Below, one piece after another: positions 272-21,276 of a stretch of 23,505 nucleotides of DNA (its first letter is position 1; every line of letters begins with the position of its first letter). Made by a program: the position numbers and the translations under genes. The notes under the pieces were generated by a model. It did not search any database and had not been told where the DNA came from. It worked only from the letters and a program-made list of their open reading frames with translations. The DNA is taken from positions 1 to 23,505 of the IMG/VR virus record IMGVR_UViG_2925939204_000004, one strand, 5' to 3'. Origin of the DNA: a virus. Its lineage: Duplodnaviria; Heunggongvirae; Uroviricota; Caudoviricetes.

Positions 272-331
272 CAGCCGAAAGGCACCCGCGCGTAATCTAT
301 CGCTTTTTTGTTACTCCGGCAATTCTGCCTG

Positions 332-592
332 TTAATTCTGAGGTAAAGGCAAGCTCATCTGATTGTTTCCCCTGTGTGAAGCTGGCAGCTCATGCCACGG
401 GATACCTTCTGAAGAGTGGATGCCGGAGGCGTGTTTCGATGTGAATTTATGGAAAGCTTCCAGTGTTGAGAAGCATACGCCGCATTCCAGGTTGTTACAC
501 TGGTAATACTTTTGCCGCACGGTGTTTGAATCATTTTCCGGACGACTGGTGCGGATACGGGCAGATGCGCCACAAAGCGGACAACGGAACAT
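332..592 (-). CDS. ogr: Ogr/Delta-family zinc-finger late transcription activator
   Basis: Translation starts MFRCPLCGASARIRTSR...YYQCNNLECGVCFS, matching the CxxC...CxxC Ogr signature of P2. The ORF is 86 aa against about 72 for P2 Ogr, so the C-terminal end is uncertain. Confidence 0.8.
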   Translation of the reverse strand: MFRCPLCGASARIRTSRPENDSNTVRQKYYQCNNLECGVCFSTLEAFHKFTSKHASGIHSSEGIPWHELPASHRGNNQMSLPLPQN

Positions 593-703
593 AGCGACCT
601 CCCTTAACGTAGTGCTGTCGCTAGTTTAGGCTGAACTTGCTCAGACTCCAACTGATAGTTCGTTTTGTTTACTGATGCCGTAGAAAGGTCTCTTAGCAAG
701 AAT

Positions 704-726
704 AACCCCAGTTTAACACTGGGGTT
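704..726 (-). terminator. Hairpin (8-bp stem AACCCCAG / CTGGGGTT, 7-nt loop) downstream of the 742-1407 gene
   Basis: Perfect inverted repeat 18 nt after the stop of the minus-strand cargo gene, followed on the minus strand by a moderately U-rich stretch (AUUCUU). Confidence 0.4.
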
Positions 727-741
727 GCTTGCAACAGAGCG

Positions 742-1407: not shown

Positions 1408-1601
1408 AACATGGATCCTTTGACATGGCATTTATGGGGGCTATTTCAGCAGTAATCATTTGTGTGTAAATTTGTTTGCTACAAATTAACATATTCTAAT
1501 GTAAGGCTCTTCTGATTTTGACACCGGGTAGGCTGTCAGATTGGTTATGATTCTTGCTGTAAGCGCGTTAGCAAATGTCAGGGCTAATGCATCTAAGTTG
1601 T

Positions 1602-2711
1602 TTACTCTGTTTCTGCTATCCATTCCGGGATTTTGGCTTCAAGCTCAAGCTGCGTGGTAAAGCCACTGTTATCAATGGTGTGCTCGGCTTTTGCAATGAT
1701 CCAGTCCTGATTATCAATCTCGCTTTTAAATCCTGTTACCGTGCCATGCATTTCGGGGTAGAGCTCTGCTCGTCCACGTGCCAGCGTGATGGAAAATGAT
1801 GCGGCTCCGCGTTGTAGCTGCTGCCACTTTGCCGCCGCTGCGCGTCTTGCTGCCTGCTCGTTCTGATAAGTTTTGCGTAACACAAACACATTGCCTTCCG
1901 CGCCTTCCATATAATCACCTTCACGGCTGCTGCTTTTCTCCTTTTTGGGTTTTGGCGGTTTGCGGCGTTTCACGCTGACTTTTTTCTTTTTCCCGTAATT
2001 AAGATCAAGCCAGTAAGCGCGTACCCCCGTATACGCTTCGCGGTCAGCAATGCGGAACTGATGGCGATCGCCACTGCTGCGCGTGATGGCGAACGAGGGC
2101 AACGGCTGGCCCTGCGCGTTCACGCCACCGCCTGGCATGATGAATAACAGATTACCGCTTTTTACCGTGGTGATTGCGCCCAGCATTTCCGCCATGCGCG
2201 TAAGGAAGGACATGTCGCTTTCTTCGGTCTGGTCGGCGTGGTCGATTTCGATATCCATCAGCATTTCGCTGATTTGCGGTTTCAGACCATACCGATGAGC
2301 GATGGCGGATACCACACGCTCAACGGTCACATCATGCCAGGACACCTCACGTTTAACGTTAAATTCATCCCGAAAATCTGCGCTTCTGGCTGAAACAGTC
2401 AGCCTGTCCGGCGGTCCTTCGTGAGCGATTTCATCAACAATGTAAGTGCCTTTTTCTGTCAGCGGTTCTCCTTTCCAGCCAATGAGAACCGTCAGGCGCG
2501 CGCCCCGTGGCGGTAGCTGCAACTGACCATCCGCATCATCCAGCGTGATGGTGAGCTGGTCCGCCTCAAATCCCCGGTTGTCGGTCAGTGACAGGCTCAT
2601 CAGGCGCTCTGCCACGCCTGACAGCGTTTTACCCTCCGCGAGAATATCAAAATCCGGCATTTTCACGGGGTCTGTGCCCTGACTGAGCAATTGCATGGTG
2701 GTGTCGGTCAT
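1602..2711 (-). CDS. D: P2 gpD-family tail protein (late control gene D)
   Basis: Translation contains SLSLTDNRGFEADQLTITLDDADG, SWHD and a basic KKKKVSVKRRKPPKPKKEK linker, as in gpD. Start placed at the internal ATG (2709-2711) preceded by GGGAGGGAG rather than at the upstream extension. Confidence 0.85.
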   Translation of the reverse strand: MTDTTMQLLSQGTDPVKMPDFDILAEGKTLSGVAERLMSLSLTDNRGFEADQLTITLDDADGQLQLPPRGARLTVLIGWKGEPLTEKGTYIVDEIAHEGPPDRLTVSARSADFRDEFNVKREVSWHDVTVERVVSAIAHRYGLKPQISEMLMDIEIDHADQTEESDMSFLTRMAEMLGAITTVKSGNLLFIMPGGGVNAQGQPLPSFAITRSSGDRHQFRIADREAYTGVRAYWLDLNYGKKKKVSVKRRKPPKPKKEKSSSREGDYMEGAEGNVFVLRKTYQNEQAARRAAAAKWQQLQRGAASFSITLARGRAELYPEMHGTVTGFKSEIDNQDWIIAKAEHTIDNSGFTTQLELEAKIPEWIAETE

Positions 2712-2868
2712 CTGCTCCCTCCCTGTGTGGCATGGTCGCATGTGCGTGCGGAGGGGGTTACTGCTTTTTGTTGTCGCCGTGGCGGGAGAATGGCGCAGGG
2801 GTGAGATTACGCGCGTGGTGGGTGATGATTGTTGCCGAATCATTTAACGGATACAAGGGGCTGAAGCT

Positions 2869-4053
2869 ATGAGTGAAACTCGTTTTCATGGTGCCCGTGT
2901 TACGGAAAATACCGACCTGGTAACAGCGATTAACGATGTTGATTCCAGCGTTATCGGTATCGTGGCAACGGCGGATGATGCGGACGCGAAGCTGTTCCCG
3001 CTGAACAAGCCCACACTGCTGACCCGCGTCAATGACGTGCTGGGAAAATGCGGAACAACGGGGACGCTTTATCGTGCGCTTAAGGCCATCGCAGACCAGG
3101 TGAGCACAAAGGTGATCGTCGTTCGCGTGGCTGAACACAAAGAAGAAGACGAAAAGACGCAGGATCAACTGGTTATCGGTGGTTCTGAGGATGACGGCAG
3201 CTATACGGGGATGTATGCGCTGCTTGTTGCAGAGCAGGATGAAAGCATCGGATACCGTCCGCGTATTCTGGCCGCGCCGGAGCTGGACACGGAGGCGGTG
3301 ACAAAATCCCTGTGCGTGATTGCGGGTAAACTGCGCGCATTTGTGTATGCCTCATGTCACGGCTGTAACACGATGGCTGAAGCGATTACCTACCGCCAGA
3401 AATTCAACGAACGTGAAGTGATGCTCTTATGGCCGGACTTCATCGCCTACAACCCGAAAAGTGGCGAAAACGAAACGTTCCCCGCGCCTGCTTATGCGTG
3501 CGGCCTTCGTGCGTACATTGACCATGAGCAGGGCTGGCACAAATCGCTGTCCAACGTTCCGGTTAAAAATGTGCTGGGGATGTCGAGGCATGTGTTCTGG
3601 TCGTTGCAGGCCGAAGACAGCGATGCCAACAGCCTCAACAACAAAGAAATCACGACCATTATTCGTCGCAACGGGTTCCGCTTCTGGGGCAACCGCACAC
3701 CGGAAACGAACGCCTACATTTTTGAGGTGTACACCCGAACCGCACAGGTGCTGGCTGATTCAATTGCGGAAGCGCAGTTTGAAACCATCGACAGTCCACT
3801 GACGCCTGCGAACGTGAAGGATGTTATCAGTGCCATCAGGGCAAAACTGGATTCACTGGTGACTGCCGGGAAACTGATTGGCGCGGAGTGCTGGTATGAC
3901 GTGGTGGATAACAGCACCACGGATTTACGTCAGGGGCGTGTGCGTATTCGCTACAAATATACGCCCGTTCCGCCACTGGAAGACATGGAGCTTTACCAGA
4001 CGTTTACTGATGAATACTTTGAACCCGCATTTGCGGTGCTGGGAGGTGCCTGA
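2869..4053 (+). CDS. FI: Contractile tail sheath protein (P2 gpFI family)
   Basis: 394-aa ORF with a FPLNKP motif near the N-terminus and sheath-like length. Its stop overlaps the FII start (TGATG). Confidence 0.9.
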   Translation: MSETRFHGARVTENTDLVTAINDVDSSVIGIVATADDADAKLFPLNKPTLLTRVNDVLGKCGTTGTLYRALKAIADQVSTKVIVVRVAEHKEEDEKTQDQLVIGGSEDDGSYTGMYALLVAEQDESIGYRPRILAAPELDTEAVTKSLCVIAGKLRAFVYASCHGCNTMAEAITYRQKFNEREVMLLWPDFIAYNPKSGENETFPAPAYACGLRAYIDHEQGWHKSLSNVPVKNVLGMSRHVFWSLQAEDSDANSLNNKEITTIIRRNGFRFWGNRTPETNAYIFEVYTRTAQVLADSIAEAQFETIDSPLTPANVKDVISAIRAKLDSLVTAGKLIGAECWYDVVDNSTTDLRQGRVRIRYKYTPVPPLEDMELYQTFTDEYFEPAFAVLGGA

Positions 4054-4565
4054 TGGCTGTGCCAAAACATCTTCGCTTTTTTACGTTGTTTGTGGATGGT
4101 GAAAACGAAGTGGGTAAGGTGACGTCCGTCACTTTGCCTAAGCTGACGCGCAAAACCGACAGCTACCGGGGTGGTGGCATGATGGGGGCGGTAAGTATTG
4201 ATCTCGGCCTGGACGACTCCGCGCTTGATGCGAGCTTTGTCATGGGGGGCGCAGTTCGTGAGCTGTTCCTTAAGTATGGCGGCACGATTGACGGCACGCT
4301 GCTGCGTTTTGCGGGTGAATACTACACCGATGCAGAAAGCGACCTGTATGAAGTCGAAATGCGCGGACGTGTGACGGAAATTGATATGGGGGAAGCCAAA
4401 CAGGGCGAAGCCACATCACACACTTACGCCATTAAAAACACCTACTACAAGCTGAGTGTTAACGATCGCCCGTTGTGGGAGATTGACCTGCTGAACTTCA
4501 TTTACCGGAAGGACGGCAAGGACATTGTGCCCGATCGCATCCGTTCCGCGCTTGGGCTTGGCTGA
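4053..4565 (+). CDS. FII: Tail tube protein (P2 gpFII family)
   Basis: 170-aa ORF containing VTSVTLPKLTRKTDSYRGGGMMGAVSIDLGLDD, the tube-protein motif. Translationally coupled to FI. Confidence 0.9.
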   Translation: MAVPKHLRFFTLFVDGENEVGKVTSVTLPKLTRKTDSYRGGGMMGAVSIDLGLDDSALDASFVMGGAVRELFLKYGGTIDGTLLRFAGEYYTDAESDLYEVEMRGRVTEIDMGEAKQGEATSHTYAIKNTYYKLSVNDRPLWEIDLLNFIYRKDGKDIVPDRIRSALGLG

Positions 4566-4619
4566 TAAGTAATATGCAGGCGGCGCAGTGCGTCGCCTCT
4601 GACTGAAAGGAGTTTCCTG

Positions 4620-4985
4620 ATGAAAGAGACGAAAAACATCGATACCGAAAACACGGTAGTTGCTGACACTGTGAAAGAAACCAGTGAGCGTGGCGTAAAA
4701 CTTACCCAACCAATTGAGCGAGGCGGCGAAAAAATCACGTATGTGGAGATCACCGGAGCTATTGAGCAGGCTGGATCTCTGCGAGATTTGTCGCTGTCTG
4801 ATGTGCTGAATCTGAAAGCGGAATCCATGTTTACGCTGCTGTCACGCGTGACATCACCGCGACTGGATGAAGTGACGATCAAAAAAATGGCATCCCGTGA
4901 CTTTATTCAGTTATGTGTGGTTGCCGTAAATTTTTTGAGCGGTGCGGACTCTGGCGGGAAGAACGAACAGGCGACGGAAGCCTGA
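4620..4985 (+). CDS. E: Tail assembly chaperone gpE (zero-frame product)
   Basis: AAAGGAG SD 7 nt before ATG at 4620. Sits between tube and tape-measure genes and contains the T6G slippery heptamer. Confidence 0.75.
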   Translation: MKETKNIDTENTVVADTVKETSERGVKLTQPIERGGEKITYVEITGAIEQAGSLRDLSLSDVLNLKAESMFTLLSRVTSPRLDEVTIKKMASRDFIQLCVVAVNFLSGADSGGKNEQATEA

Positions 4986-5149
4986 TCACGGTTGTGTGCT
5001 TTGAGCACATAGAAGACTTTGTGGCAGATATTGCCGTTATTTTTAACTGGTCGCCCGCCGAAATCTTCATGATGACGCCCGGCGAAGTGGTTAGCTGGCG
5101 TGAGCGGGCGGCACTTCGCAGCGGGAATGCAGACAATGAAGACTCTTGA
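4620..5149 (+). CDS. gpE+E' fusion made by a programmed -1 frameshift
   Basis: The -1 frame (ORF 4913-5149) opens exactly at the TTTTTTG site and ends with SWRERAALRSG, overlapping the T start. This is the P2 FETUD arrangement. Confidence 0.6.
4931..4937 (+). other. Programmed -1 ribosomal frameshift slippery site (TTTTTTG)
   Basis: T6G heptamer in the E frame (codons AAT TTT TTG give NFL); the -1 frame continues FERCGLW for 71 more codons. Confidence 0.6.
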
Positions 5150-7943
5150 TATCCGGGTCGCTTTCAGCGCCGTTGACAGGCTGACCCGACCTGCCGAAAA
5201 CGCCCGCCGCCTGATGGGGCAGTTTGGTGACTCCATTCAGCGAACGCAGGGGGCGATCAAAAATCTCGAGCGTCAGGTGCGTTCATTTGAGCGCGCCCGC
5301 GACGCTGTCAGTAAAGCGGATGCGGGCATCGTGAAAGCACGACGCCAGCTTAACGCCCTAAATCAGTTACAACGCACGGGTACAGTGCTCAGCGAAAAGC
5401 AACAAAAGCTGATGCAGCAGTTAAGCACCCGGCTTGAACGCCTGAATGAATCGCGCACACGGGAAATTCAGAAAATGCGGGAGCTTGGCGGAGAGCTGAA
5501 ACGCCACGGCATTTCCCTGACAGGCAGCGATAACACCATCCAGCAGGCCATCAGACGCACCGAACAGTACAACAACCAGCTTGAACGCGAACGGCAGGCT
5601 CTTGCGCGTGTAACGCGGGCGCGTGAGCGGTATTCGCGCGCGCAGGAAACAGCGGGAAAACTGAAAACAGGTGGTGCGCTGGCAATTGGTGCGGCAGCGG
5701 CGGGCGGCTATGCTGCCGGGCGTTTTTTGCAGCCTGCGATCGGGTTCGGGAAAGAGATGTCCCGCGTTCAGGCACTGACGCGAATCGACAAAAACAGCCC
5801 GCAGTTTAAGGCGCTGCGTGAGCAGGCGTTAAAACTTGGCTCTGAAACGCAGTTCACCGCAGGCGATGCCGCCAGTGGGCAGGCATTTCTTGCAATGGCT
5901 GGCTTCACACCACAGGCCATTCAGGCTGCGCTCCCTGGCGTACTGAGCATGGCAACGGCTGGCGGTATGGACCTCGGTGAGACGGCGGATATTGGCTCAA
6001 ATATTCTGACGCAGTTCGGTCTTTCTGCTGACCAGATGGACCGGGTCGGCGACACACTCACCGCAGCGTTTACCCGTACCAACACTGACCTTCGCGCACT
6101 GGGTGAAACCATGAAATATGCAGGTCCGGTGGCGGGTAAGCTGGGAATATCGCTGGAGCAGGCCGCAGCGATGGCGGGCGTGCTGGCGAATATGGGTATC
6201 AGGGGGAGTGATGCCGGGACGGCAATGCGTGCCAGCCTGGCTCGTCTGGCATCACCGCCAAAGGCGGCAGCAGAGGCGCTGAAAGAGCTTGGCGTGTCTG
6301 TCTCGGATGCCGGGGGCAAAATGCGCCCGATGGAGGATGTGCTGGCTGACCTTTATAAAGCTACCCGCAAATACGGGGAAGTTGACCGGGTATCGTTCTT
6401 TAAGGACATTGCCGGAGAAGAGGCTTTCACATCATTTATGGCCCTCGTTGATGCGGCAGGTGACGGCTCCTTACCCAAACTGAGAAAAGAACTTGAAGGC
6501 GCGCGCGGTGAGGCTGAACGCACGGCAAAGGTTATGGCCAACAACCTTGACGGCGATCTGAAATCACTCAGCAGTGCATGGGAAGGGTTGCGCATCCGCA
6601 TTGCAGATCTGATTGACGGTCCGCTGCGTTCTGTCACGCAGTGGCTCACGCGTGTGGTATCAAAGGTGACGGCGCTGGCGCAGGCCCATCCCGCACTGAC
6701 GCGCCAGCTACTGATTGCAGGCGGTGCGTTGCTGGCAATGACTGCAACGGTTGGCTCGTTGTCGCTGGCTATTGGTGTGCTTGCTGGCCCGCTGGCAAAA
6801 CTGCGTCTTGGCTTTTCCCTCCTGACCGGTTCAATGAATGCTGTCAGACTCCTGCCAGCATTATGGGGAATGGTGACGGGTTCCGTTTCGTTACTGGGGG
6901 GCGCTATCGGGGCGTTGTTCAGTCCGGTCGGTCTTATCGTGGCTGCGCTTGCCGGAGCTGCCGTTCTCATCTGGAAATACTGGGATCCCATCAGGGCATT
7001 TTTTGCCGGGGTGTTCAGCGGGATTATGGAAAGGCTGACCCCGTTGCGCGAAACCTTTGAACGGTTTGGTCCTGTTTTTGACGCAATCGGAAGCGGGATC
7101 AGCCAGGTGTTTAACTGGTTTAAATCGCTGTTGTCACCGATGGAGTCCAGCAAGGAAACGCTGGATAAATGTACCAGTGCTGGCGAGATATTCGGTAACG
7201 TTCTTGGCGGTGCGTTACAACTTGTTCTGACACCTGCAAAAATGCTACTGGATACGCTGGCGTGGATACTTGAAAAACTTGGCGTCCTTCCGGATGAAGC
7301 GGAAAGGGCGCGCAAGAAAATCGAAGACGCACAGCGTGCGGCCATTCTTCAGGACAAGGTTGCCTTACTTCAGGGGGACCTGGCGAAAATCAATCCGCCG
7401 AAGCCTGTGGAAAATGGCAATGGCACCGGAGGTGATAAACCCAAAGACAACAAACCGCTCACAGACAGCAATACCGGGACGCTACGCAGACTCAGCAAAA
7501 TTGCTGATAACACAGGTAAGCTGGTTGATGAGACGAAAAAACGCATTGGCCCCGGCGATATTGTCTTTAAGAACCTGCCCCGCGCACTTGCTGTTCGTGG
7601 GGAGTGGCAGGAGCGGAAGATTGCACAGGTCAGTAAGCCTGCCCCCGCAATTAATATCACCCCCGTGGTCCCGGCTCCGCTGCCTCCGGCGCTGGTCCCT
7701 GTTGTTGCGGCCAGCTCCCGCCCGGTGGCGGAGGCCATACGATCTCCAGTGGCATCAGTTCCTGTAACTTCCCGTAACCGGGAGCCTGTTGCCTCCGGAT
7801 TTGGTGGTGAAATTCATGTTCATCTGCATAACGTTGTTACGCAGAATCCCCGCGAACTGGCGAAACTGGTCGGTGAAATGGTCAGGGCAGAAATGGAACG
7901 GCGCGCCCGTGCTGGGCGTGGCAGTTTTTACGATAAAGATTGA
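5136..7943 (+). CDS. T: Tail tape measure protein (P2 gpT family)
   Basis: About 936 aa with an N-terminal coiled-coil region, Gly/Ala-rich hydrophobic segments and a Pro/Ala-rich tract. Follows E/E'. Start chosen at ATG 5136 (GGGA 9 nt upstream), in the same frame as the tracked ORF. Confidence 0.9.
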   Translation: MKTLDIRVAFSAVDRLTRPAENARRLMGQFGDSIQRTQGAIKNLERQVRSFERARDAVSKADAGIVKARRQLNALNQLQRTGTVLSEKQQKLMQQLSTRLERLNESRTREIQKMRELGGELKRHGISLTGSDNTIQQAIRRTEQYNNQLERERQALARVTRARERYSRAQETAGKLKTGGALAIGAAAAGGYAAGRFLQPAIGFGKEMSRVQALTRIDKNSPQFKALREQALKLGSETQFTAGDAASGQAFLAMAGFTPQAIQAALPGVLSMATAGGMDLGETADIGSNILTQFGLSADQMDRVGDTLTAAFTRTNTDLRALGETMKYAGPVAGKLGISLEQAAAMAGVLANMGIRGSDAGTAMRASLARLASPPKAAAEALKELGVSVSDAGGKMRPMEDVLADLYKATRKYGEVDRVSFFKDIAGEEAFTSFMALVDAAGDGSLPKLRKELEGARGEAERTAKVMANNLDGDLKSLSSAWEGLRIRIADLIDGPLRSVTQWLTRVVSKVTALAQAHPALTRQLLIAGGALLAMTATVGSLSLAIGVLAGPLAKLRLGFSLLTGSMNAVRLLPALWGMVTGSVSLLGGAIGALFSPVGLIVAALAGAAVLIWKYWDPIRAFFAGVFSGIMERLTPLRETFERFGPVFDAIGSGISQVFNWFKSLLSPMESSKETLDKCTSAGEIFGNVLGGALQLVLTPAKMLLDTLAWILEKLGVLPDEAERARKKIEDAQRAAILQDKVALLQGDLAKINPPKPVENGNGTGGDKPKDNKPLTDSNTGTLRRLSKIADNTGKLVDETKKRIGPGDIVFKNLPRALAVRGEWQERKIAQVSKPAPAINITPVVPAPLPPALVPVVAASSRPVAEAIRSPVASVPVTSRNREPVASGFGGEIHVHLHNVVTQNPRELAKLVGEMVRAEMERRARAGRGSFYDKD

Positions 7944-7955
7944 GGAGTCATGGCC

Positions 7956-8444
7956 ATGATGATGATCTACGGCATGTTTGTTTTTGAGCTGCGCACATTG
8001 CCGCATCAGCAGTTACAGCAAAACAAAAGCTGGCGGCATGTGAAAAATGAACGCGTTAACCGTTCAGCAAGCTGGCAGTATATCGGCGCAGGTGATGATC
8101 GCATCGTGCTTTCCGGCGTGCTTTATCCTGAAATTACAGGTGGCGAAGTGTCGCTTTCGTTGCTGACCACACAGGCATATACAGGACGCCCCTGGCCTCT
8201 GATTGATGGTGTCGGGCAGATTTACGGCATGTATGTACTGACTGAAACGAATACGACCCGTTCCGAGTTTGATCGCTACGGTAAGGCGAAAAAGATAGAA
8301 TTTTCACTGACCCTTGAACGCTGTGATGAGGATTTGCGGGAGCGTCTGCAATCCTCATCGTTCAGTGATATGCTGTCCGGCTTCAAAGATAAGGTCACAT
8401 CATCCCTTAACAGCGCGGCCAGTTCAGTTAAAGGACTGTTCTGA
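7956..8444 (+). CDS. U: Tail protein gpU
   Basis: Translation MMMIYGMFVFELRTLPHQQLQQNKSWRH...VLSGVLYPEITGG resembles P2 gpU. GGAG sits 8 nt before ATG 7956. Confidence 0.85.
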   Translation: MMMIYGMFVFELRTLPHQQLQQNKSWRHVKNERVNRSASWQYIGAGDDRIVLSGVLYPEITGGEVSLSLLTTQAYTGRPWPLIDGVGQIYGMYVLTETNTTRSEFDRYGKAKKIEFSLTLERCDEDLRERLQSSSFSDMLSGFKDKVTSSLNSAASSVKGLF

Positions 8445-8453
8445 TTTTACATT

Positions 8454-8496
8454 GCCGCTAATACCCTCATATTGGGTAATGGGCGGCTTGTTGTTA
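8454..8496 (+). terminator. Candidate intrinsic terminator after U
   Basis: Imperfect hairpin (GCCGCTAATACCC ... GGGTAATGGGCGGC) followed by CTTGTTGTTATATA, 10 nt after the U stop. Confidence 0.35.
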
Positions 8497-8540
8497 TATA
8501 ATATATCGTAGGTCCTGATAAAACTGTTGAGGTTTCTACT

Positions 8541-9719
8541 TTATAAAGAATTGCTACTTTCTAATTCTGGGTTTCTGGATCTATTTTTACAACCTAAATC
8601 CGAGTGGTAATTCGGTATATCGTTTGTCAAATCTTGTTTGATAGCATTAATTAAGATCATTATGTCGAATTTATGCATATCGTCGCCCCCTTCAGACCTT
8701 AGATGTTCGGATGTGGTGAGTTGAGTCGCTAATTTGCTGTTTGGCCCCCACACAATATTATTTTCGAATTTTCCTTCATGCATTCTGTTATTATATATAC
8801 AGTATTGTCTAATGTTTAATGCACTGGCTAAATGTACAATGGCAGTATCTACAGTTATAACAAAATCAGCATGGCGAACCAATGCAAATGAACATCCGGC
8901 ATCAGAAAATGGAGATAGAGACACATTATCCAATCCATTGTGATTAATCTGTTTTCCCATATTAAAAACTATTGTGTGATATCCCTTAAGGTTATTAAGG
9001 TAAGCTAGTACTTTGTTTATCTGTTCATCAGATAAGGTTCTGCTATTCTGAGAGCCATAAGGGTTAAATATAACTAATTTTTTGTTTTTCTTCCTGAATT
9101 CATTTGCAACAATATTTGCTGGTTCATATATTTTGTTGTCAAAATTAAGCGCTGCAGCATAATTATTATTTTTTATCTTTAGTAAAGATAAAACTTTTTT
9201 CATTCTTTCAGATGTGTGAATGGAACGATTATCGATTATATTTGTATCAAAAATAGTTACGGCAGGATGATTAAAACAGATAGAGTGTTTAGGTCTAAGT
9301 AAATGTAGTGTTTGCAATCTGGTTATCGCTGTGTTATCAAAATTTGAGAAGTCAACAACAAGATCTACATTCAGTTTTTTTATCTTTGCTTTTAGTTCGT
9401 TAAATTTATTTTTCTCGTAAGATATAAAGGCATCCACGCCAACAATATCAGTAAAGAGGAATGATACTCTTGAAGGTGCTATCACATATACCACCATACC
9501 GGATTTTTGAAGTTGTTTAATAAACCCTGAGGTAACGATGCCGTCACCAATGGCTTGCATGTGCATGAAAATGCACACTGTTTTATAACTATCCGGCTGT
9601 AATGATGTTTTCCTTCTGTATCGCATTTTTAGAAATGCCAGTCTGGCCTTCGTCTTTATCTTTTTTGTTTTAATATTTCGCTGTCTGTTAAGCTGTTTTA
9701 ATGATGAAATAACATTCAT
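8541..9719 (-). CDS. GT9-like (heptosyltransferase-fold) glycosyltransferase, AT-rich cargo
   Basis: Very AT-rich ORF. N-terminal VCIFMHMQAIGDGIV...VYVIAPS and C-terminal KKLVIFNPYGSQNSRTLSDEQ and ADFVITVDTAIVHLASALNI resemble GT9 motifs. Start uncertain: the tracked ORF begins at TTG 9779 and the ATG at 9719 has only a weak SD. Confidence 0.5.
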   Translation of the reverse strand: MNVISSLKQLNRQRNIKTKKIKTKARLAFLKMRYRRKTSLQPDSYKTVCIFMHMQAIGDGIVTSGFIKQLQKSGMVVYVIAPSRVSFLFTDIVGVDAFISYEKNKFNELKAKIKKLNVDLVVDFSNFDNTAITRLQTLHLLRPKHSICFNHPAVTIFDTNIIDNRSIHTSERMKKVLSLLKIKNNNYAAALNFDNKIYEPANIVANEFRKKNKKLVIFNPYGSQNSRTLSDEQINKVLAYLNNLKGYHTIVFNMGKQINHNGLDNVSLSPFSDAGCSFALVRHADFVITVDTAIVHLASALNIRQYCIYNNRMHEGKFENNIVWGPNSKLATQLTTSEHLRSEGGDDMHKFDIMILINAIKQDLTNDIPNYHSDLGCKNRSRNPELESSNSL

Positions 9720-9813
9720 AATGGTACCCTGAAATTCCAAATCACACATGTCATCCGAAATGAGCAGGGTACTATACAAAAAACTGGACTACAATGGTTT
9801 GAAATGAAAGCCT

Positions 9814-10413
9814 TTATGCTTGTTTACTCCTTGATTCCACTGGGGAAGCTGGCCACTCAATATCCGGTGCTCTTGATGTATCAACACGGTTCAGCAGCAC
9901 TCGATACTTCTTCCAGGCTTCCAGCAACGAGATTTCTTCCTCCGTTGCGATTTCCAGATCTACAGCATCCTGAAGTGGCGCAATATGCTCACTGGCTACC
10001 TGCATCAGGCTGTTTTTTGTTTCTTCTGCCTCCCGGATCCGGAACAGTTTTTCTGCTTCCGTATCCTTCACCCAGGCTGTGCCGTTCCACTTCTGATATT
10101 CCCCTTCCGGCGACGACCAGGTAACATTTTCCGGTAACGGACCGAGTTCAGAAATAAATAACGCGTCGCCGGAAGCCACGTCATAAACCGTTTTACCACG
10201 ATGATCTTCAACGAGATGCCAAGACGCCCCATCACTGTTGAAAACAGCCACGAAGCCAGCTGGAATATCTGGCGGAGCAATATCAGTACTATTTGCAGGC
10301 AGACCTGTATGAGGTGGAATGTATGCATCACCTTCACCAATAAATTCATTGGTTCCGACCAGCAGATTATAAATTTTTATGGTTCGTGGTTGTTCACTCA
10401 TTCTGAATGCCAT
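9814..10413 (-). CDS. Tail fibre assembly protein (Tfa, P2 gpG-like)
   Basis: 199 aa with conserved C-terminal [26 protein letters not shown]. Its ATG overlaps the stop of the upstream tail fibre ORF (TAATG). Confidence 0.85.
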
Positions 10414-11480
10414 TATGCAAGCCTCACAATATAGTTAAATGCGATGTTTTTTACGGTGTTTTCCGCGTTGCCATAAGCGGCAATGGTAATGGTGTGTGTG
10501 TGCGAACCAATAGCGAGCGTATGTGTATGCGCACCTATTGCTACTGTGTGAGTATGAGCTCCTGCGCTTAATACGCGATTACTTGCTGTCTTGCTTGTGT
10601 TAGTTGCATGCATTCCACCACCGGTACCGGGAGTTTCTGCGTATGCTGAAGTATTGTTGTAAGCAAAGTTGTGTGTATGTGCTCCGGTGTTATTTGTGGA
10701 TTTAGTTCCGTAATCAAACGACGATGTGGTTTTCGTCCCCAAATCCGTACTGGATGCGCTGGCGCTGTGGGTGTGCGATTTAATGCCGTCCTGTTCCTGA
10801 GACAATACGGCCCGACCACTGGCAGGTTTGCCCTTAATCGTCCAGCCACGCATATCAGGGATCACGCCTGACGGATAAGCGACTGCAAGTTTCGGGTAGG
10901 CAGATTTGTCAAAAGTCTGCCCCTGCATCAGGGCATAACCAGACGGAACGGTATCCGATGGCCACGGGATTGGTGCGCCAGGCGGATAAAACTGCTCTGA
11001 TGGCGTATAGAGTGAATAAACTGTACCGTCCGTTAACCCTTCCGGCTTATTAGCAGAATATGCTGGTGACGGATGAATCGTTACGCTGGCATTACTGGTA
11101 TAATCCCATTGAATATTTACACCAGTCGCATAATTTCCGATTGCAACGTAAATATCGTAAGTATCACCAGATGTATTGACCCAGGCAAAATTTGTAAACC
11201 CTGCCGATGTGCGCTGCCATAAAGCACCAGTAATCCCCTTCGGATTACCATTACCTGCACGCAAAACAATTTCAGATATACCTGCCTGTTGAGGTGAACC
11301 GACGTTATATCCAGCGCCACCAATCAACGTAATTGAAACAACAGAACTCGCCTGTGGCATGGTTACCGTTGCTAATTTGAACCAACCAGCACCACCTCTG
11401 AATGACATTGTTGTTGAGTTAAGCGTACCAATATCTTTCGGTGTCAGTGTTATATCCGCTGAAAGCGCCTTACCATTCAC
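10413..11480 (-). CDS. Tail fibre protein, C-terminal receptor-binding region; N-terminally truncated relative to P2 gpH
   Basis: C-terminus carries [24 protein letters not shown] fibre repeats. The ORF opens only with GTG 21 nt after an in-frame stop. An ATG-AGT (Met-Ser) start sits right after the I stop but hits a stop after 6 codons. Confidence 0.55.
10470..10565 (-). repeat. Tandem degenerate coding repeats (about 24 bp, HTHT-x-AIG units) inside the tail fibre gene
   Basis: Three consecutive units visible in both the DNA and the translation. Confidence 0.4.
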
Positions 11481-11504
11481 CTTACGGGCAGAAGGTACTC
11501 ATGC

Positions 11505-12467
11505 TTAATCGTCCGGATAAATGGTAATGACTTCACCGTCGTAAGTTGCTGCCGCCGCGAAAATATCCCCCGGAATTTCCTGAATGATATTCAGCCCTGT
11601 CATGTGGCGGCTGACCGGGCGGGCATCAGCAATCAACCGCTCCATTTCCAGATACATTTCCTCCGTCACGCCACTGTCCAGCGTGCCGACTTCAACGGTA
11701 AATGTTCCCGGTTCTCCGCCGAACTCCCACCACTCAGACACGCGAATGAGGTATCCCAGCGGCTCAATGGCCCGGCGCAGTGCGCTGATGGTTCCTTTGT
11801 GTCGGTGTATCAGCCATGCATCACGAATCACCTGTCGCTTTGTCTCTTCCGGCCAGTTGCGATCCCAGCGGTCAACGGAAAACGCCCAGGCGAGATAAGG
11901 CAGCAGATGCACCGGGCAGGTGTCCGGCGACCACAGCGTGTTGAGGTCTACCGGAATGTCTGTAACGTCCTGAAGCAGCTTGTTGGTGCTGAAGTTGGAC
12001 TCATCTGCGTGAGACGTGCCGTTGAAACCGATCATGATGCGGTCAAGCGCCACCTGCCGGGCAATCTGTGTGCTGACGCGTGACTGAAAATCAGGGTGTG
12101 CCGCCCAGGCATCAAGCTGCGGATACGAAATAAACGTGTCGTAGTTCACCTGTTCGCACTGATATTTACGGTTTTTCAGATCAACCACGTTATTCGGGTT
12201 ACGGCGTTTTGTGCCGTCATAACTGGTATTCGTGCGCGCAATCGGCCCGGTGGTGTCCAGGAGGATTTTTTCGCCTTTCTGGTCGGTCACACCGAACACG
12301 TTAATTTTTTTTGTAAATTCAGTGCTCTCCTTTACTGCGTTTTCAAAACGCTGCTGCACCGAGGGTTCCACGGTAAATCGCGATACCAGTGCAGATACCG
12401 GGATGTTGTTAAGCGACGCCTGCTGCGCCATATAGCAACCCAGCTTGTTGCGGGTAATATCTGACAT
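11505..12467 (-). CDS. Chimeric ORF: N-terminal half of major capsid protein gpN fused in frame to tail protein gpI (deletion remnant)
   Basis: Residues 1 to about 172 resemble gpN (FTVEPSV, RKYQCEQVNYDTFISYPQLDAWA, IMIGFNGT). From about 11965 downstream the protein resembles gpI (LWSPDTCPVHLLPYLAWAFSVDRWDRNWPEE, LGYLIRVSEWWE, MERLIADARPVSRH). Confidence 0.7.
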   Translation of the reverse strand: MSDITRNKLGCYMAQQASLNNIPVSALVSRFTVEPSVQQRFENAVKESTEFTKKINVFGVTDQKGEKILLDTTGPIARTNTSYDGTKRRNPNNVVDLKNRKYQCEQVNYDTFISYPQLDAWAAHPDFQSRVSTQIARQVALDRIMIGFNGTSHADESNFSTNKLLQDVTDIPVDLNTLWSPDTCPVHLLPYLAWAFSVDRWDRNWPEETKRQVIRDAWLIHRHKGTISALRRAIEPLGYLIRVSEWWEFGGEPGTFTVEVGTLDSGVTEEMYLEMERLIADARPVSRHMTGLNIIQEIPGDIFAAAATYDGEVITIYPDD

Positions 12468-12502
12468 CACCAGATTCATAAAAAATTTGCTCCTTTGTCT
12501 TA

Positions 12503-13339
12503 TCAGAAGTCAGCCAGTTGATCGGAGGCTGCGCCCGTTGCGGTGAACCGGTTCTGCGGATCGCCGTCCTGCGTGCGCAGTTTTTCCTTCAGTGCTGTCA
12601 GCTCTGTGGTCAGTAAAGTGATTTTCTGGCTGTCCTGCTGATGGCGGGTTTCCAGCGCATTAAAACGGTCGATAATGTCGGCCTGTGACGTTGCGACACC
12701 TTCCACCGCTTCCTGAATACGGGAGAAACTGGCGTCATCCGCTTTGCGGCCACGGCCAATAATCCCCATAACGCGGTTAAACCACTGGGTGCCTTCTTCC
12801 TGACGTTGTTCGGTGAGTTCGATAAGTTCTGACTCCATAGCGGCGGTAAACATCGCCACGTCTCCCTGCTGACAGTTGAATGTCATCAGTTGCATACGTT
12901 GTTGTGCCGCAAAGACCAGACGTTCCGTGCCCAGGCTGGCAGGGGTGTCGGTCATTGCCAGCCCGCGCAGGTAAGGGCCTCCCGTGATGGTTGACTGTGG
13001 TTCCAGCTCAATACTGGAGTAAATTTTTTTACCATCGTTAAGCAGGGACATCATGCGAGCGGTCGGCTCAATTTCGGCATACAGTGCCGTGCGGCCTGCC
13101 AGCGGGCCATCGGTTATGTCTTCGGTGCTCAACCCCACAACATCGCCCATAGCGGAAAACTCGCTACCGGGGAGTGGTGACAGGATGTGCTCAATATTCA
13201 CACGTGCACCATAAACGGACGGGTTATAACTGGTGGCGGCAGCTTTCAGCATGTCGCCGTTGATTTCGCGCCCGTCTGCCGTTACACCGGAGACAGCCAC
13301 GCGAAACTTTTTGCGGGATGTCTTTTTTTCATTAGCCAT
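12503..13339 (-). CDS. O: Capsid scaffolding protein (P2 gpO family)
   Basis: Translation MANEKKTSRKKFRVAVSGVTADGREI...VYGARVNIEH resembles gpO. GAGGGG SD precedes ATG 13337-13339; the tracked ORF's upstream extension was rejected. Confidence 0.85.
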   Translation of the reverse strand: MANEKKTSRKKFRVAVSGVTADGREINGDMLKAAATSYNPSVYGARVNIEHILSPLPGSEFSAMGDVVGLSTEDITDGPLAGRTALYAEIEPTARMMSLLNDGKKIYSSIELEPQSTITGGPYLRGLAMTDTPASLGTERLVFAAQQRMQLMTFNCQQGDVAMFTAAMESELIELTEQRQEEGTQWFNRVMGIIGRGRKADDASFSRIQEAVEGVATSQADIIDRFNALETRHQQDSQKITLLTTELTALKEKLRTQDGDPQNRFTATGAASDQLADF

Positions 13340-13499
13340 AGTTTTTGCCCCTCTGACTGGTTCTTCAGTCATGATGGCAAAGCGTAACAGGCTGATACAA
13401 AGGGCTTTTGTTGTAAGAAAACGGCCAGAACAGGGGGTTAAGGAGAACGGTTTCGCGCGCGGGTAATCTTCCTGTAGCGATCTTGAATCATGGTGGTAT

Positions 13500-14105
13500 G
13501 TGCAGGATGGCAAGGATGCGTTCCAGTTTCGCCCTGGCAAAGTGTGCCACCTGATGAATCCTGACATTAACCAGGAAATCTACGGCATGCCGGAATATCT
13601 CGGCGCATTACTCTCGGCCAGCCTGTCTCATTCGGCGGACATGTTCAGAAAACTGTATTACGACAACGGATCCCACGCCGGGTGCATCATCTACATCGGT
13701 GCAGCGCAGGTAAACCGCGAAAGCATGGACTCCCTGAAAGAAACGCTACAGGGTGCACGTGGTGGCGGTGCGTTTAAAAACGTGCTCATTCATGCGCCCA
13801 ACGGGGGCAAAGAGGGGGTGCAAATTTTGCCGTTCCAGCAGATCACCGCAAAGGATGAGTTCATGAATGTTAAGGCGGCATCCCGTGATGATGTGCTGGC
13901 TGCGCACCGCGTTCCGCCGCAACTGATGGGGGCGATGCCGGGTGAAAAAAGTGCGTTTGGTGATGTGGAGAAGGCCGCGCGGGTTTACGCAATTAACGAG
14001 CTGATGCCCGTCATGGAGGCCATGAAGCACATCAATGACTGGCTTGGCGAAGAGGTGATCCGCTTTAACCCTTACGCACTGTTAGATACCCAGCCCACAT
14101 CCTGA
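13500..14105 (+). pseudogene. Portal protein (P2 gpQ family), C-terminal fragment of about 200 aa
   Basis: Contains PDINQEIYGMPEYL and RDDVLAAHRVPPQLMG portal motifs but begins with GTG only 160 bp from the divergent O start. There is no room for the N-terminal portal half or for the terminase gene P. Confidence 0.65.
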
Positions 14106-14638: not shown

Positions 14639-15157
14639 TCATTCGAAACTGGCAAGAATCTGTTCTCGAACAGAAGATTTCATCGTTAACCCACGATCTA
14701 GGAAAAATTGGAAATGCATTAAGGCTTGTTGTTTGTGTATAAGTCTCCTGCGCACAGCCTCTTGAAGTAGCCCTCCGTGGCGGGCGGCTTTTACACCGCG
14801 TTCCGCACACGTTTTATAAACCGCATTATCCGCCGAAAGACATGTTGCATCATGTATTCTCGCGTTAACAACGCAGCTTATGTCCGCATACTTCAATGCT
14901 CTCCTGCGATTTTTTATCTCAGCCATTTCAATAAAATGTTCAGGTTCGTAATCATTGGTGAAATTGTATGGAAGTTGCAGGCGTGTAAGCTGTTCCTGAA
15001 CATCAAGATTGTATTTAGCTTTTAGTTCCTCGCAGACATAGGGGTCAATCCACACACCACCCGGGTAAATTTGCCAGATAATATCTAAGCATTTACCTTC
15101 GTAAAAATCAGACAGTACATTCGTATCGATAACACATCTGGGGCATTCAAACGGCAT
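14639..15157 (-). CDS. PIN-like (VapC/DUF4411-like) putative nuclease; toxin or effector candidate
   Basis: Starts at ATG 15155-15157, overlapping the upstream gene's stop by 11 nt. N-terminus CVIDTNVLSDF with downstream acidic residues (CEELK, IHDATCLSADN) spaced as in PIN folds. AT-rich. Confidence 0.6.
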   Translation of the reverse strand: MPFECPRCVIDTNVLSDFYEGKCLDIIWQIYPGGVWIDPYVCEELKAKYNLDVQEQLTRLQLPYNFTNDYEPEHFIEMAEIKNRRRALKYADISCVVNARIHDATCLSADNAVYKTCAERGVKAARHGGLLQEAVRRRLIHKQQALMHFQFFLDRGLTMKSSVREQILASFE

Positions 15158-16292
15158 CCTCTCCGGCCTCCTGTTCGTCGTACCATTCATCCAGAAGATT
15201 GCTGAGAGCTTTTCTGTCTAATTCTAAAAGTTCAGATATGAAGGTTTCCGACGCGGAACCGGCTTCCCATGCTTTACGCGATAAGACGGTTAGGCGACCT
15301 TTATAATTTAGTGCTTCCCTAATGGGATTTGGCTCGTGTCTCTTCCAACCTTTACGATTGGCGGTTGCCCATAGGTATCTAGTGTTTTGTTGATTAATTA
15401 AATTACATTTACTAAGACGATCGATGATGCAAGTGGCTGATACTCTGAAAATGCTTTTTAGTCTAAGGACGGTTTCCTCATACGCCCATCCACCACCTTG
15501 CATGACGAATTGTTTTCGCAATGCGCTTTCTGGTACCAAAAAACAAGCAGCAAAGTGATTAGCAACTTTTTCTTCCGGTGAAATTGCTTTGCCATTAGTT
15601 TTATAGCTTTTAGCAGGGCCATGATACTCATCACGGTGGAAGATAAGATGAGCATATTCATGGCAAATACTGAAGATTTGACGTTCTATTGAAATGCTGT
15701 CGTGAACATTTACATAAATCGCGGTACCGTATTTGTTCGAAAACGCAGAAAATCCGAATACCATCCCTTTATCGGTTTCTTCGCGATTGAACGGGATTAC
15801 TCGAATATCCGATGCTTCCAAAATGGCTACAATGTCACCAACGCAAGTAGCGTTTCCTATACCAAGACGGAAACGTTCTTCCATAGCCTTATCTTCGACT
15901 CTTCGCAAATCTTCTGCTTTGGCGGTAAAAATAGGCATTGAGTTAGGAAGATCTTCTGGCAAATTAGCATCAGCAGCTTCCTCAATTGCATTGATATTTT
16001 TTAACTTTTCAATCAACTCATTGCGAAGTTTGGCATCCAACAAATCCGGACTATCTGCTCGCATTGCAAAACGAAACTCGCCATCATCTTGCTCATAAAA
16101 ATACCCGATAGGCTTATCGAAAATCTTGCAGAGCATGATGAGTTGGGTAACGCTTGGGACGCCTAACGCCTGCTCAAACTTACTGTAGGTTTGACGAACA
16201 ACACCGATCGCATCTGCGACGGCGCTTGCACTCATTCCCGCGTCGTTTCTGGCCTGAACCAAGCGTTCTGCTATACGCTGTTGAATGTTCAT
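15147..16292 (-). CDS. XRE-family HTH fused to an ImmA/IrrE-type (COG2856/M78) zinc metallopeptidase
   Basis: N-terminal HTH (QRIAERLVQARNDAGMSASAVADAIGVVRQTYSKFE) and an intact HEXXH motif in SICHEYAHLIFH. AGGTGA SD precedes the start. AT-rich. Confidence 0.7.
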   Translation of the reverse strand: MNIQQRIAERLVQARNDAGMSASAVADAIGVVRQTYSKFEQALGVPSVTQLIMLCKIFDKPIGYFYEQDDGEFRFAMRADSPDLLDAKLRNELIEKLKNINAIEEAADANLPEDLPNSMPIFTAKAEDLRRVEDKAMEERFRLGIGNATCVGDIVAILEASDIRVIPFNREETDKGMVFGFSAFSNKYGTAIYVNVHDSISIERQIFSICHEYAHLIFHRDEYHGPAKSYKTNGKAISPEEKVANHFAACFLVPESALRKQFVMQGGGWAYEETVLRLKSIFRVSATCIIDRLSKCNLINQQNTRYLWATANRKGWKRHEPNPIREALNYKGRLTVLSRKAWEAGSASETFISELLELDRKALSNLLDEWYDEQEAGEDAV

Positions 16293-16473: not shown

Positions 16474-16785
16474 TTACTCAGGAAATAGCGCCCGGATATT
16501 TCCGGCCATCTGACTGGTTATCTGTGCGGTTGGTACTGGCTGTGACACGGGGCGTTCTGTCCTGGTTTGTGTCACGGATAACGCCTCATCGTCAGCCCAT
16601 GCAGCCAGTCGGTAAGCCTCTGCCGGATTCATTTTCAGAAGTGCCAGCCCGGCCAGAAAAGCCACGCGTTGGCCGCTTTTGCGGGCTTCTGGTGTAAGGC
16701 TGTCCAGCCAGGCGCATGCTTCGCCTTCGTTCTTGACGGCGGCGGGCTTCAGATAGAAACTTATCCGTCTGGTTGGTGTCGTCAT
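16474..16785 (-). CDS. parR: ParR/StbB-like centromere-binding adaptor
   Basis: Start at ATG 16783-16785 with AAGGAG SD, 4 nt after the parM stop. N-terminus RRISFYLKPAAV...AWLDSLTPEARKSGQRVAFLAGLAL resembles the ParR ribbon-helix-helix region. Confidence 0.65.
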   Translation of the reverse strand: MTTPTRRISFYLKPAAVKNEGEACAWLDSLTPEARKSGQRVAFLAGLALLKMNPAEAYRLAAWADDEALSVTQTRTERPVSQPVPTAQITSQMAGNIRALFPE

Positions 16786-16789
16786 TGGT

Positions 16790-21117: not shown

Positions 21118-21276
21118 CTACGAGTAGTTATTGCTGGCTTGAGGTTCATTTCTGTTTAATTCCGTGCATGCTGTAGAAGAAATCAAAAGTGTTAATCCAT
21201 GCTCATCGCGGTATGGGTAGAACGCCGCCAAACGCTCAAAATCCGCTTGCTCGTATGTGTTCAAGAGCTTTGTCAT
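21118..21276 (-). CDS. Small ORF (52 aa) in the cox position; uncertain
   Basis: ATG 21274-21276 to TAG 21118-21120, first ORF divergent from C. Weak SD and no resemblance to Cox. Confidence 0.2.
   Translation of the reverse strand: MTKLLNTYEQADFERLAAFYPYRDEHGLTLLISSTACTELNRNEPQASNNYS

What the first reader, a model, noticed from the sequence alone, without database searches (positions are those of the whole stretch)
11505..12479. In-frame capsid gene N / tail gene I chimera marks a large internal deletion
Seen in sequence: one ORF whose first 170 or so residues resemble major capsid protein gpN and whose remaining 150 or so resemble tail protein gpI, with the junction near 11965. Established knowledge: in P2 the genes M, L, X, the lysis genes, R, S, V, W and J lie between N and I. 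Inference: a deletion of roughly 8-9 kb removed small terminase, head completion, lysis and baseplate genes, so the element cannot make virions or baseplates. The sheath, tube, tape-measure, U and D genes nonetheless look intact.
Basis: partly seen in the sequence, partly recalled or inferred. Interest (0 to 1): 0.55.

Follow-up and report, generated by a model that had tools for sequence, protein, structure and literature searches.

The report
Capsid–tail fusion scar in dead prophage
The odd gene is a real in-frame fusion of half a capsid gene to most of a baseplate gene, left by a 6.4-kb deletion in a decaying P2-like prophage of E. coli; this is ordinary prophage decay that public annotation already marks as two pseudogenes.

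Summary
ORF 11505-12479 (-) encodes 324 aa. Residues 1-172 are residues 1-172 of a 350-aa P2-family major capsid protein (gpN). Residues 172-324 are residues 24-176 of the 176-aa baseplate protein gpI. The joint lies at window 11963-11965, on a 3-bp microhomology.

Two intact relatives at about 96-99.9% identity show that 6,420-6,422 bp are missing, not 8-9 kb. The lost stretch holds the rest of N, then M, L, X, holin, endolysin, two spanin genes, R, S, V, W, J and the start of I.

The window is a P2-like prophage between ihfA and btuC of E. coli. The identical joint occurs in 15 of 5,426 complete genomes. RefSeq calls both halves pseudogenes, and GenBank lists the fusion as 'phage tail protein I'. 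The deleted DNA is absent from the chromosome in 13 of those 15 genomes.

This window also lost terminase P with the portal N-terminus, the N-terminal half of tail fibre H, and early genes. Sheath, tube, E/E', tape measure, U and D are intact.

One side observation is unexplained. Eight of ten independent deletions in this prophage lineage join at TA-containing microhomology, and three share one GGTACC endpoint.

Verdict: a real feature, correctly read, of low interest.

The parts
11505..12479 (-). In-frame N'-'I fusion ORF, 324 aa
   Evidence: It is deposited in GenBank as 'phage tail protein I' (AQV20368.1 and others). RefSeq splits it into two pseudogenes.
11966..12479 (-). N' segment: codons 1-172 of the P2-family major capsid gene (350 codons when intact)
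   Evidence: DNA is 99.93% identical to the intact N region of AH21F008.
11963..11965 (.). Deletion joint. The 3-bp microhomology is TAA on the + strand (TTA on the coding strand). 6,420-6,422 bp are missing here.
11505..11962 (-). 'I segment: codons 24-176 of baseplate gene I, with its stop codon
12503..13339 (-). Intact gpO capsid scaffold/protease gene, upstream of the fusion in the same operon. About 135 bp of the O-P intergenic late-promoter region is retained.
   Evidence: The position of the promoter is inferred by analogy with P2.
13476..14105 (+). Portal gene Q remnant, C-terminal about 209 codons. The second deletion joint is at 13474-13476 (GTA). 2,186 bp are missing: all of terminase gene P and the first 139 codons of Q.
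10413..11502 (-). Tail-fibre gene H remnant. The start codon is at 11500-11502. The third deletion joint is at 11494-11498 (GGTAC). 1,022 bp are missing and the frame is shifted, giving a stop after 6 codons. The C-terminal 355 codons remain only as an internal ORF.
9814..10413 (-). Intact tail-fibre assembly gene (G-like)
1602..8444 (.). Intact tail module: D (1602-2711 or 1602-2843, -), FI sheath (2869-4053, +), FII tube (4053-4565, +), E (4620-4985, +), E' (4994-5149, +), T tape measure (5136-7943, +), U (7956-8444, +)
21193..21194 (.). Fourth deletion joint (TA). 1,660 bp of the early operon are missing, including most of the cox-like first early gene.

Best explanation
The ORF is a deletion scar, not a gene with a function of its own.

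A P2-like temperate phage was integrated between ihfA and btuC of an E. coli clone. It belongs to the Peduoviridae, and its closest deposited record is the Gemsvirus 'Escherichia phage 500465-2'. It suffered one RecA-independent (illegitimate) deletion of about 6.42 kb. One end lay after codon 172 of capsid gene N and the other at codon 24 of baseplate gene I, and the ends joined on 3 bp of shared sequence.

The deletion removed the C-terminal half of N, the small terminase M, head completion L, X, holin, endolysin, both spanins, tail completion R and S, the baseplate genes V, W and J, and the first 23 codons of I. The two reading frames happened to match, which has a prior chance of about one in three, so an open 324-codon fusion results.

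The fusion sits behind an intact gpO gene and a retained late-promoter region. It could therefore be transcribed only if Ogr were made, and its product is expected to be non-functional. The prophage was then locked in and kept decaying. In this window it also lost P and the N-terminus of Q, the N-terminal half of H, and early genes.

Shown: the identity of the two halves, the breakpoints, the missing gene set and the shared ancestry of the joint. Inferred: the deletion mechanism, the lack of function of the fusion, and the inability to form particles.
For: - Domain and pairwise matches identify both halves.
- Colinear alignment to two intact sister prophages places the same joint with the same 3-bp overlap, with 6,422 bp missing (STEC409) and 6,420 bp missing (AH21F008).
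- The identical joint at 100% identity is present in 15 independently assembled complete genomes. The fusion protein is recorded on 109 contigs and is indexed in 198 blocks of the contig collection. An assembly artefact is therefore excluded.
- Sister copies carry the N-I joint but still have intact P, Q, H and early genes (TH9F11, strain 165). The N-I deletion therefore came first and the other losses are nested later events.
- DNA of M, the C-terminal part of N, W and J is absent elsewhere in 13 of 15 carrier chromosomes (one place per record).
- PGAP independently calls the two halves pseudogenes.
Against: - No expression or particle data exist.
- All copies are identical, so selection on the fusion cannot be tested.
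The closest intact relatives are 97.5-99.9% identical at the two flanks, so the microhomology could be a base longer or shorter than 3 bp.
- Plasmid records of the carrier genomes were not individually inspected for the deleted genes.
- The junction sequences in this lineage are not random (see the items noticed in passing). 'Generic' slippage may therefore not be the full mechanism.
Confidence: 0.93

Rival explanations
1. The fusion is an exapted gene. A truncated capsid/baseplate hybrid would be kept because it interferes with assembly of superinfecting P2-like phages, or serves some other host purpose, and this would explain why it is in frame.
For: - The frame is open over 324 codons.
- The gpO gene and the late-promoter region upstream are retained.
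- ogr is intact.
- The ORF is unchanged in 15 complete genomes.
Against: - An in-frame result has a chance of about 1 in 3.
- All carriers are near-identical, with 0-3 substitutions in 28 kb, so conservation carries no information.
- One sister lineage (ET791) has deleted the whole fusion together with O.
- The N part stops in the middle of the capsid domain, at profile position 160 of 327.
Confidence: 0.03
2. The joint arose by recombination between two different P2-like prophages, or between sister chromosomes, rather than by deletion within a single copy.
For: The two flanks differ in their identity to AH21F008: 99.93% on the O-N' side and 97.5% on the 'I side. This is compatible with mosaic ancestry.
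Against: - Both flanks are equally close to the STEC409 prophage (97.9% and 97.5%), which is colinear and sits at the same attachment site.
- Only 3 bp are shared at the joint, so no homologous exchange is involved.
- Most carrier genomes have no second P2-like prophage.
- The outcome would be the same in either case.
Confidence: 0.04
3. The joint is an assembly or sequencing artefact that falsely brings N and I together.
For: None found.
Against: The same joint is present in 15 complete genomes from different laboratories and countries, and the fusion protein is recorded on 109 contigs.
Confidence: 0

Closest known systems
Defective (cryptic, 'grounded') prophages of Enterobacteria, in particular P2-like remnants in E. 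coli
   Same: - An integrated temperate phage inactivated by internal deletions and IS insertions.
- Cargo genes, the immunity repressor and the integrase are retained.
- Pseudogene fragments are left at the deletion edges.
- Decay by deletion is the described norm (review PMC6379469).
   Different: Nothing in kind. The particular N'-'I joint is specific to one E. coli clone. It happens to be in frame, so older GenBank annotation lists it as one protein.
Escherichia phage 500465-2 (NC_049343, Gemsvirus) and the intact prophages of STEC409 and AH21F008
   Same: - The same gene order on the structural side, including the native opposite orientation of FI-U relative to H-G and the divergent D gene.
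- 95-99.9% DNA identity over shared parts.
   Different: - These relatives carry complete N, M, L, X, lysis genes, R, S, V, W, J and I.
- 500465-2 has a DNA invertase with an invertible fibre segment where this element has a family-9 glycosyltransferase gene.
Phage P2 (NC_001895)
   Same: The same protein families and operon logic: Q-P divergent from O-N-M-L-X-lysis-R-S, then V-W-J-I-H-G, then the F operon, ogr, int, C and A.
   Different: - Only 43% (gpN) and 62% (gpI) protein identity.
- In P2 the F operon runs in the same direction as H-G.
- P2 carries old/tin and fun(Z) where this element carries PIN + HTH-ImmA/IrrE + ParMR and a glycosyltransferase.
R-type tailocins (phage-tail-like bacteriocins derived from P2-like tails)
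   Same: Sheath, tube, tape measure, U and D genes are retained without head genes.
   Different: A tailocin needs a baseplate (V, W, J, I), tail completion, a fibre and a lysis cassette. Here V, W, J, R, S, X and the lysis genes are deleted, and I and H are truncated. It cannot work as a tailocin.

Membership tests
P2-like (Peduoviridae) prophage | Hallmark protein families: gpO, gpN, gpI, FI, FII, T, U, D, Ogr, gpA, portal | tested here: met
   Pfam hits above the gathering scores: PF05929, PF05125, PF09684, PF04984, PF04985, PF10145, PF06995, PF05954, PF04606, PF05840, PF04860.
P2-like (Peduoviridae) prophage | P2-type synteny and high DNA identity to deposited Peduoviridae genomes | tested here: met
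   92-98% identity to Gemsvirus and Xuanwuvirus records over O-N' and Q'. Colinear with NC_049343 and with the intact sister prophages apart from the deletions.
P2-like (Peduoviridae) prophage | Chromosomal integration flanked by a duplicated att core | tested here: met
   The element lies between ihfA and btuC in all carriers. A 25-bp direct repeat, GGCCGCTCTGCGGCCTTTTTTCTTT, flanks it in L005. The window itself ends inside the prophage.
Functional (plaque-forming) P2-like phage | A complete set of essential late genes: Q, P, O, N, M, L, X, R, S, V, W, J, I, H, G, FI, FII, E, T, U, D | tested here: not met
   M, L, X, R, S, V, W, J and P are absent. N, I, Q and H are truncated.
P2-family major capsid protein (PF05125) | A full-length capsid domain of about 327 profile positions | tested here: not met
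   Only profile positions 4-160 are present. 172 of 350 residues remain.
gpI baseplate protein (PF09684) | A complete gpI of 176 aa | tested here: inconclusive
   Profile positions 13-138 of 139 are present. The first 23 residues are replaced by 172 residues of gpN. The effect on function is unknown, and its partners J, W and V are absent in any case.
R-type tailocin | Sheath and tube together with baseplate, fibre and lysis genes, in the absence of head genes | tested here: not met
   Baseplate and lysis genes are deleted and the fibre gene is frameshifted.

The most novel reading that the evidence does not exclude
The N-I fusion may be the founding event of an unusually fast series of deletions in one prophage lineage. 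These would be produced by a sequence-biased breakage and joining activity rather than by random slippage.

Ten independent deletions were scored against at most 3 substitutions in 28 kb. Joining occurs at TA dinucleotides. The endpoints are enriched for GGTACC-like flanks, and one perfect GGTACC site was used three times.

A candidate is a nuclease, restriction enzyme or transposase that leaves TA-compatible ends. None was identified here.
Probability: 0.15. Interest if true: 0.5.

Novelty: already known. Interest (0 to 1): 0.13.

Why it matters
For annotation, it means the 324-aa 'phage tail protein I' entries in GenBank are a capsid/baseplate deletion scar. It also means this prophage should be scored as defective: no heads, no baseplate, no lysis, no packaging.

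For biology, the 16 near-identical copies form a tidy, dated example of stepwise prophage decay within a globally sampled, largely clinical E. coli clone. The killing functions are lost first, while cargo genes, the tail-tube module, the repressor and the integrase persist.

Nothing here changes current understanding. The only lead worth a further look is the TA-biased junction signature.

Tried and rejected
**Inversion of FI-U relative to H-G as part of the damage.** Rejected. The same arrangement is present in the deposited phage 500465-2 and in the intact sister prophages.

**IS-mediated deletion at the N-I joint.** Rejected. No IS sequence or IS end remains at any of the four joints in the window.

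**Tailocin remnant.** Rejected because the baseplate and lysis genes are absent.

**Explanations tried for the shared deletion endpoint at 11494-11498:**
- Hairpin: no significant structure (z = -0.74).
- DNA-invertase crossover site: no matching inverted repeat in 500465-2.
- Phage att core: unrelated sequence.
- gpA nick site: the P2 nick site has no TA.
- The site lies 5-9 bp outside a 3 x 132-bp tandem repeat array in intact H, which may or may not matter.

**Type IIA topoisomerase cleavage as the source of the TA joints.** I used the determinants -4G, -2A, -1T, +5A, +6T, +8C and quinolone +1G/+4C, taken from PMC10117906 and PMC6379681. The endpoints are not enriched over other TA sites (p = 0.69).

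**Candidates considered from memory that did not fit the flanks:** IS630 (TA), IS5 (YTAR), IS608 (TTAC), integron GTT secondary sites, the RuvC consensus, XerCD/dif and the colibactin motif.

**Other dead ends:**
- A search for an Ogr-type TGT-N12-ACA site upstream of O found none in the retained region. The promoter statement therefore rests on positional analogy only.
- The look-up of encoding contigs gave no further deletion variants, only loss of two 132-bp repeats in one assembly.
- The PIN/ImmA cargo in CFSAN029787 turned out to sit in a different, intact P2-like phage, so it was no use for junction analysis.

Full report
**1. The observation**

The window has a single 975-nt ORF at 11505-12479 on the minus strand, encoding 324 aa. 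Its N-terminal half matches Pfam Phage_cap_P2: residues 15-173, profile positions 4-160 of 327, E = 5e-56. Its C-terminal half matches Tail_P2_I: residues 166-289, profile positions 13-138 of 139, E = 7e-47. PHROGs gives the same split, with major head protein phrog_70 on residues 5-173 and tail protein phrog_48 on residues 173-322.

Against an intact sister prophage, residues 1-172 align to gpN 1-172 of 350 at 97% identity, and residues 172-324 align to gpI 24-176 of 176 at 99%. Against phage P2 itself the values are 43% to gpN (E = 1e-44) and 62% to gpI (E = 1e-78). The C-terminal half shows no capsid similarity.

**2. What the window is**

The whole window is 100% identical to a prophage between ihfA and btuC in a set of complete E. 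coli genomes, including AR_0128, AR_0118, MS6193, strain 165 and TH9F11. An assembly with exactly this form is GCA_015285385.1.

The element is P2-like. It encodes gpO, the N'-'I fusion, an H remnant, a fibre assembly protein, sheath FI, tube FII, E/E', tape measure T, U, D, Ogr, replication protein gpA, a C-type repressor and an integrase. Its cargo is a hok/gef gene, a family-9 glycosyltransferase at the position of P2 fun(Z), and ParM/ParR plus an HTH-ImmA/IrrE protein and a PIN protein at the position of P2 old/tin.

The closest deposited phage record is Escherichia phage 500465-2 (Peduoviridae, Gemsvirus). In that record and in intact sister prophages, FI-U runs opposite to H-G and D is divergent from FI. 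That orientation is therefore native and not part of the damage.

**3. The deletion**

Alignment to the intact prophage of STEC409 (same attachment site, 95-98% identity) breaks at window 11963-11965. The two alignment blocks overlap by 3 bp and 6,422 bp are absent. A second intact relative, AH21F008, is 99.93% identical over O-N'. It gives the same joint, the same 3-bp overlap and 6,420 bp absent.

The missing stretch contains:
- codons 173-350 of N
- gpM, the small terminase
- the head completion gene (L)
- X
- holin
- the M15 endolysin
- the LysB-like and LysC spanin genes
- R and S
- V, W and J
- codons 1-23 of I

The size estimate of 8-9 kb is too high. The same span in P2 would be about 7.7 kb, because P2 has orf30 and lysA. 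No IS remnant lies at the joint.

**4. The joint is real and inherited**

A 300-bp probe across the joint matches end to end at 100% in 15 of 5,426 complete genomes. In the other matching genomes listed it matches only one half. The exact 324-aa protein is recorded on 109 contigs, indexed in 198 blocks of the contig collection, and named 'phage tail protein I' in GenBank. RefSeq/PGAP annotates two pseudogenes: 'P2 family phage major capsid protein, missing C-terminus' and 'phage tail protein I, missing N-terminus'.

It joined 3.5 kb of lineage-specific cargo to 2.1 kb of deleted DNA (J with part of W, and M with the C-terminal part of N). In 13 of the 15 lineage chromosomes listed, 12 of which carry the joint, only the cargo place matched. 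So the deleted genes are not elsewhere in those chromosomes at megablast sensitivity. The two exceptions, CH468 and CREC-591, have further P2-like prophages. Plasmid records were not inspected one by one.

**5. A decay series**

I used the least damaged copy (TH9F11, 28,373 bp, already carrying the N-I joint) as the reference. The sister copies differ from it by at most 3 substitutions but by many structural events.

This window, and AR_0128, CH468 and others, additionally lack three stretches:
- 2,186 bp: all of terminase gene P and the first 139 codons of Q. Joint at 13474-13476.
- 1,660 bp of the early operon, including most of the cox-like first gene. Joint at 21193-21194.
- 1,022 bp of H. 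Joint at 11494-11498. This leaves ATG AGT ACC followed by a frameshift and a stop.

MS6193 and Ecol_224 have the first two of these deletions but an intact H, which gives the order of events.

Other lineages have their own deletions:
- EC7518: 599 bp and 4,511 bp.
- ET791: 5,331 bp and 4,242 bp. The first removes the fusion itself.
- CM151386: 444 bp and 3,029 bp.

Five different IS elements have inserted in different copies: IS1, an IS3-family element, ISApl1, ISKpn26 and ISEcp1 with blaCTX-M-15.

The N-I deletion is shared by all copies in which the region survives, so it is the oldest event. It would by itself have abolished particle formation and lysis.

**6. Mechanism and function**

What is shown is a clean deletion joined on 3 bp. 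What I infer is an illegitimate, RecA-independent joining event in a single prophage copy.

The frame match is most simply chance, with a prior of about one in three. The fusion lies directly behind an intact gpO gene. About 135 bp of the O-P intergenic region survive the P-Q deletion. In P2 the activator site and the start of O-operon transcription lie 40-110 bp upstream of O. By positional analogy, the late promoter is probably still there and ogr is intact. I found no canonical TGT-N12-ACA site in the retained stretch.

Any expression would need Ogr, which by established P2 biology is not made in a lysogen. The product carries only the first half of the capsid domain, and its baseplate partners are absent. 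I therefore expect it to be inert. No test of selection is possible because all copies are identical. One sister lineage has lost the fusion altogether.

**7. Comparison with what is known**

This is a textbook defective prophage. Decay of 'grounded' prophages by deletion, with retention of cargo, is well described (PMC6379469). The cargo positions match the known P2 hotspots: the gpA-to-gpQ region next to cos, where more than a quarter of P2-like phages carry partition genes, and the Z/fun locus (bioRxiv 10.1101/2021.01.21.427644).

It is not a tailocin. Sheath, tube, tape measure, U and D remain, but V, W, J, R, S, X and the lysis genes are gone, and I and H are truncated.

**8. A side observation I could not explain**

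The ten independent deletion joints have these microhomologies: TTA, GTA, TA, GGTAC, GGTA, TA, none, GTA, TG, TA. Eight of ten contain TA. For random deletions in the same sequence the expectation is 0.6% overall, and 2-11% given the observed microhomology lengths. No simulation reached 8 of 10. The two exceptions have a TA directly beside a breakpoint.

Three independent deletions share an endpoint within 11494-11498, the only endpoint that is a perfect GGTACC. The probability under uniform placement is about 3e-5. Among TA sites, the endpoints are enriched for G-G upstream and C-C downstream (p = 7e-4, a post hoc test).

Explanations tested and not supported were a hairpin, an invertase site, the att core, the gpA nick site and the type IIA topoisomerase determinants. 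I record this as unexplained.

No deletion touches the hok-ogr-D-FI...U-glycosyltransferase-tfa arm, window 1-10413 (p about 0.025 for seven events). This is weak evidence, and four of the five IS insertions do land in that arm, three between ogr and D and one in the glycosyltransferase gene.

**9. Verdict**

The finding is real and was interpreted correctly apart from the deletion size. It is an ordinary deletion scar in a decaying P2-like prophage and is already flagged as pseudogenes in RefSeq. Interest is low. The only element that might repay further work is the TA-biased, GGTACC-centred junction signature of the decay series.

Noticed in passing
window 11494-11498, 11963-11965, 13474-13476, 21193-21194; sister loci L008, L009, L010: Eight of ten independent deletion joints in this prophage lineage use TA-containing microhomology (TTA, GTA, TA, GGTAC, GGTA, TA, GTA, TA). 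The expectation for random deletions is 0.6%. The endpoints are enriched for GGTACC-like flanks (p = 7e-4, post hoc). No mechanism was identified.
   Followed up: partly
window 11494-11498 (GGTACC in intact H; L005 12994-12999): Three independent deletions share an endpoint within 5 bp: the window-type 1,022-bp deletion, the EC7518 599-bp deletion and the ET791 5,331-bp deletion. The probability under uniform placement is about 3e-5. The site lies 5-9 bp outside a 3 x 132-bp tandem repeat array of the fibre shaft. No hairpin is predicted.
   Followed up: partly
whole window compared with L001, L005, L007-L014: Structural decay far outpaces point mutation. Across 16 copies there are at least 10 deletions and 5 IS insertions against 0-3 substitutions in 28 kb. 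No deletion touches window 1-10413 (hok, ogr, D, FI-U, glycosyltransferase, tfa); p is about 0.025.
   Followed up: partly
window 14639-16292 (-): There is a cargo pair at the P2 old/tin hotspot next to cos. The HTH + ImmA/IrrE (Peptidase_M78) protein matches PADLOC RmrA models (E = 3e-35). The overlapping PIN/DUF3368 protein matches PDC-S70 only weakly (E = 3e-4). This is a candidate anti-phage or toxin-antitoxin module. It is retained in all copies examined except CM151386.
   Followed up: partly
window 16474-17749 (-): A ParM (StbA_N) gene and a Plasmid_stab_B partition gene lie between gpA and the cos side. This fits the published report that more than a quarter of P2-like phages carry a partition system at this hotspot.
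   Followed up: no
window 8541-9719 (-): A family-9 glycosyltransferase (heptosyltransferase-like, weak Pfam hit) sits at the fun(Z) position between the fibre-assembly gene and U. It is a possible LPS-modifying conversion gene. In phage 500465-2 this slot holds a DNA invertase and an invertible fibre segment. ISKpn26 interrupts the gene in CH468.
   Followed up: no
window about 1130-1505 (between ogr and D); L001, L010, L012: Three different IS elements inserted independently within about 370 bp: IS1 in AR_0128, an IS3-family element in strain 165, and ISEcp1-blaCTX-M-15 in CM151386. The prophage remnant has thus become a chromosomal landing site for an ESBL gene.
   Followed up: no
window 1602-2843 (-): The start of gene D is annotated inconsistently. 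Older PGAP runs give 801 nt as 'VgrG/Pvc8 family'. Newer runs give 1,110 nt as 'late control D'. The ORF and the phage record 500465-2 give 1,242 nt.
   Followed up: no
window 12503-13567 (-): The longest ORF for gpO has a 76-codon N-terminal extension that overlaps the portal remnant on the other strand. The extension is spurious: the Pfam match and the annotation both start at the Met at 13339.
   Followed up: yes
PHROGs library, phrog_8979: The best PHROG hit to the N' half is phrog_8979, a 180-position family of 'unknown function' (E = 2e-86). It corresponds to the N-terminal half of the P2-family capsid protein. The family may be built from split or truncated capsid genes.
   Followed up: no
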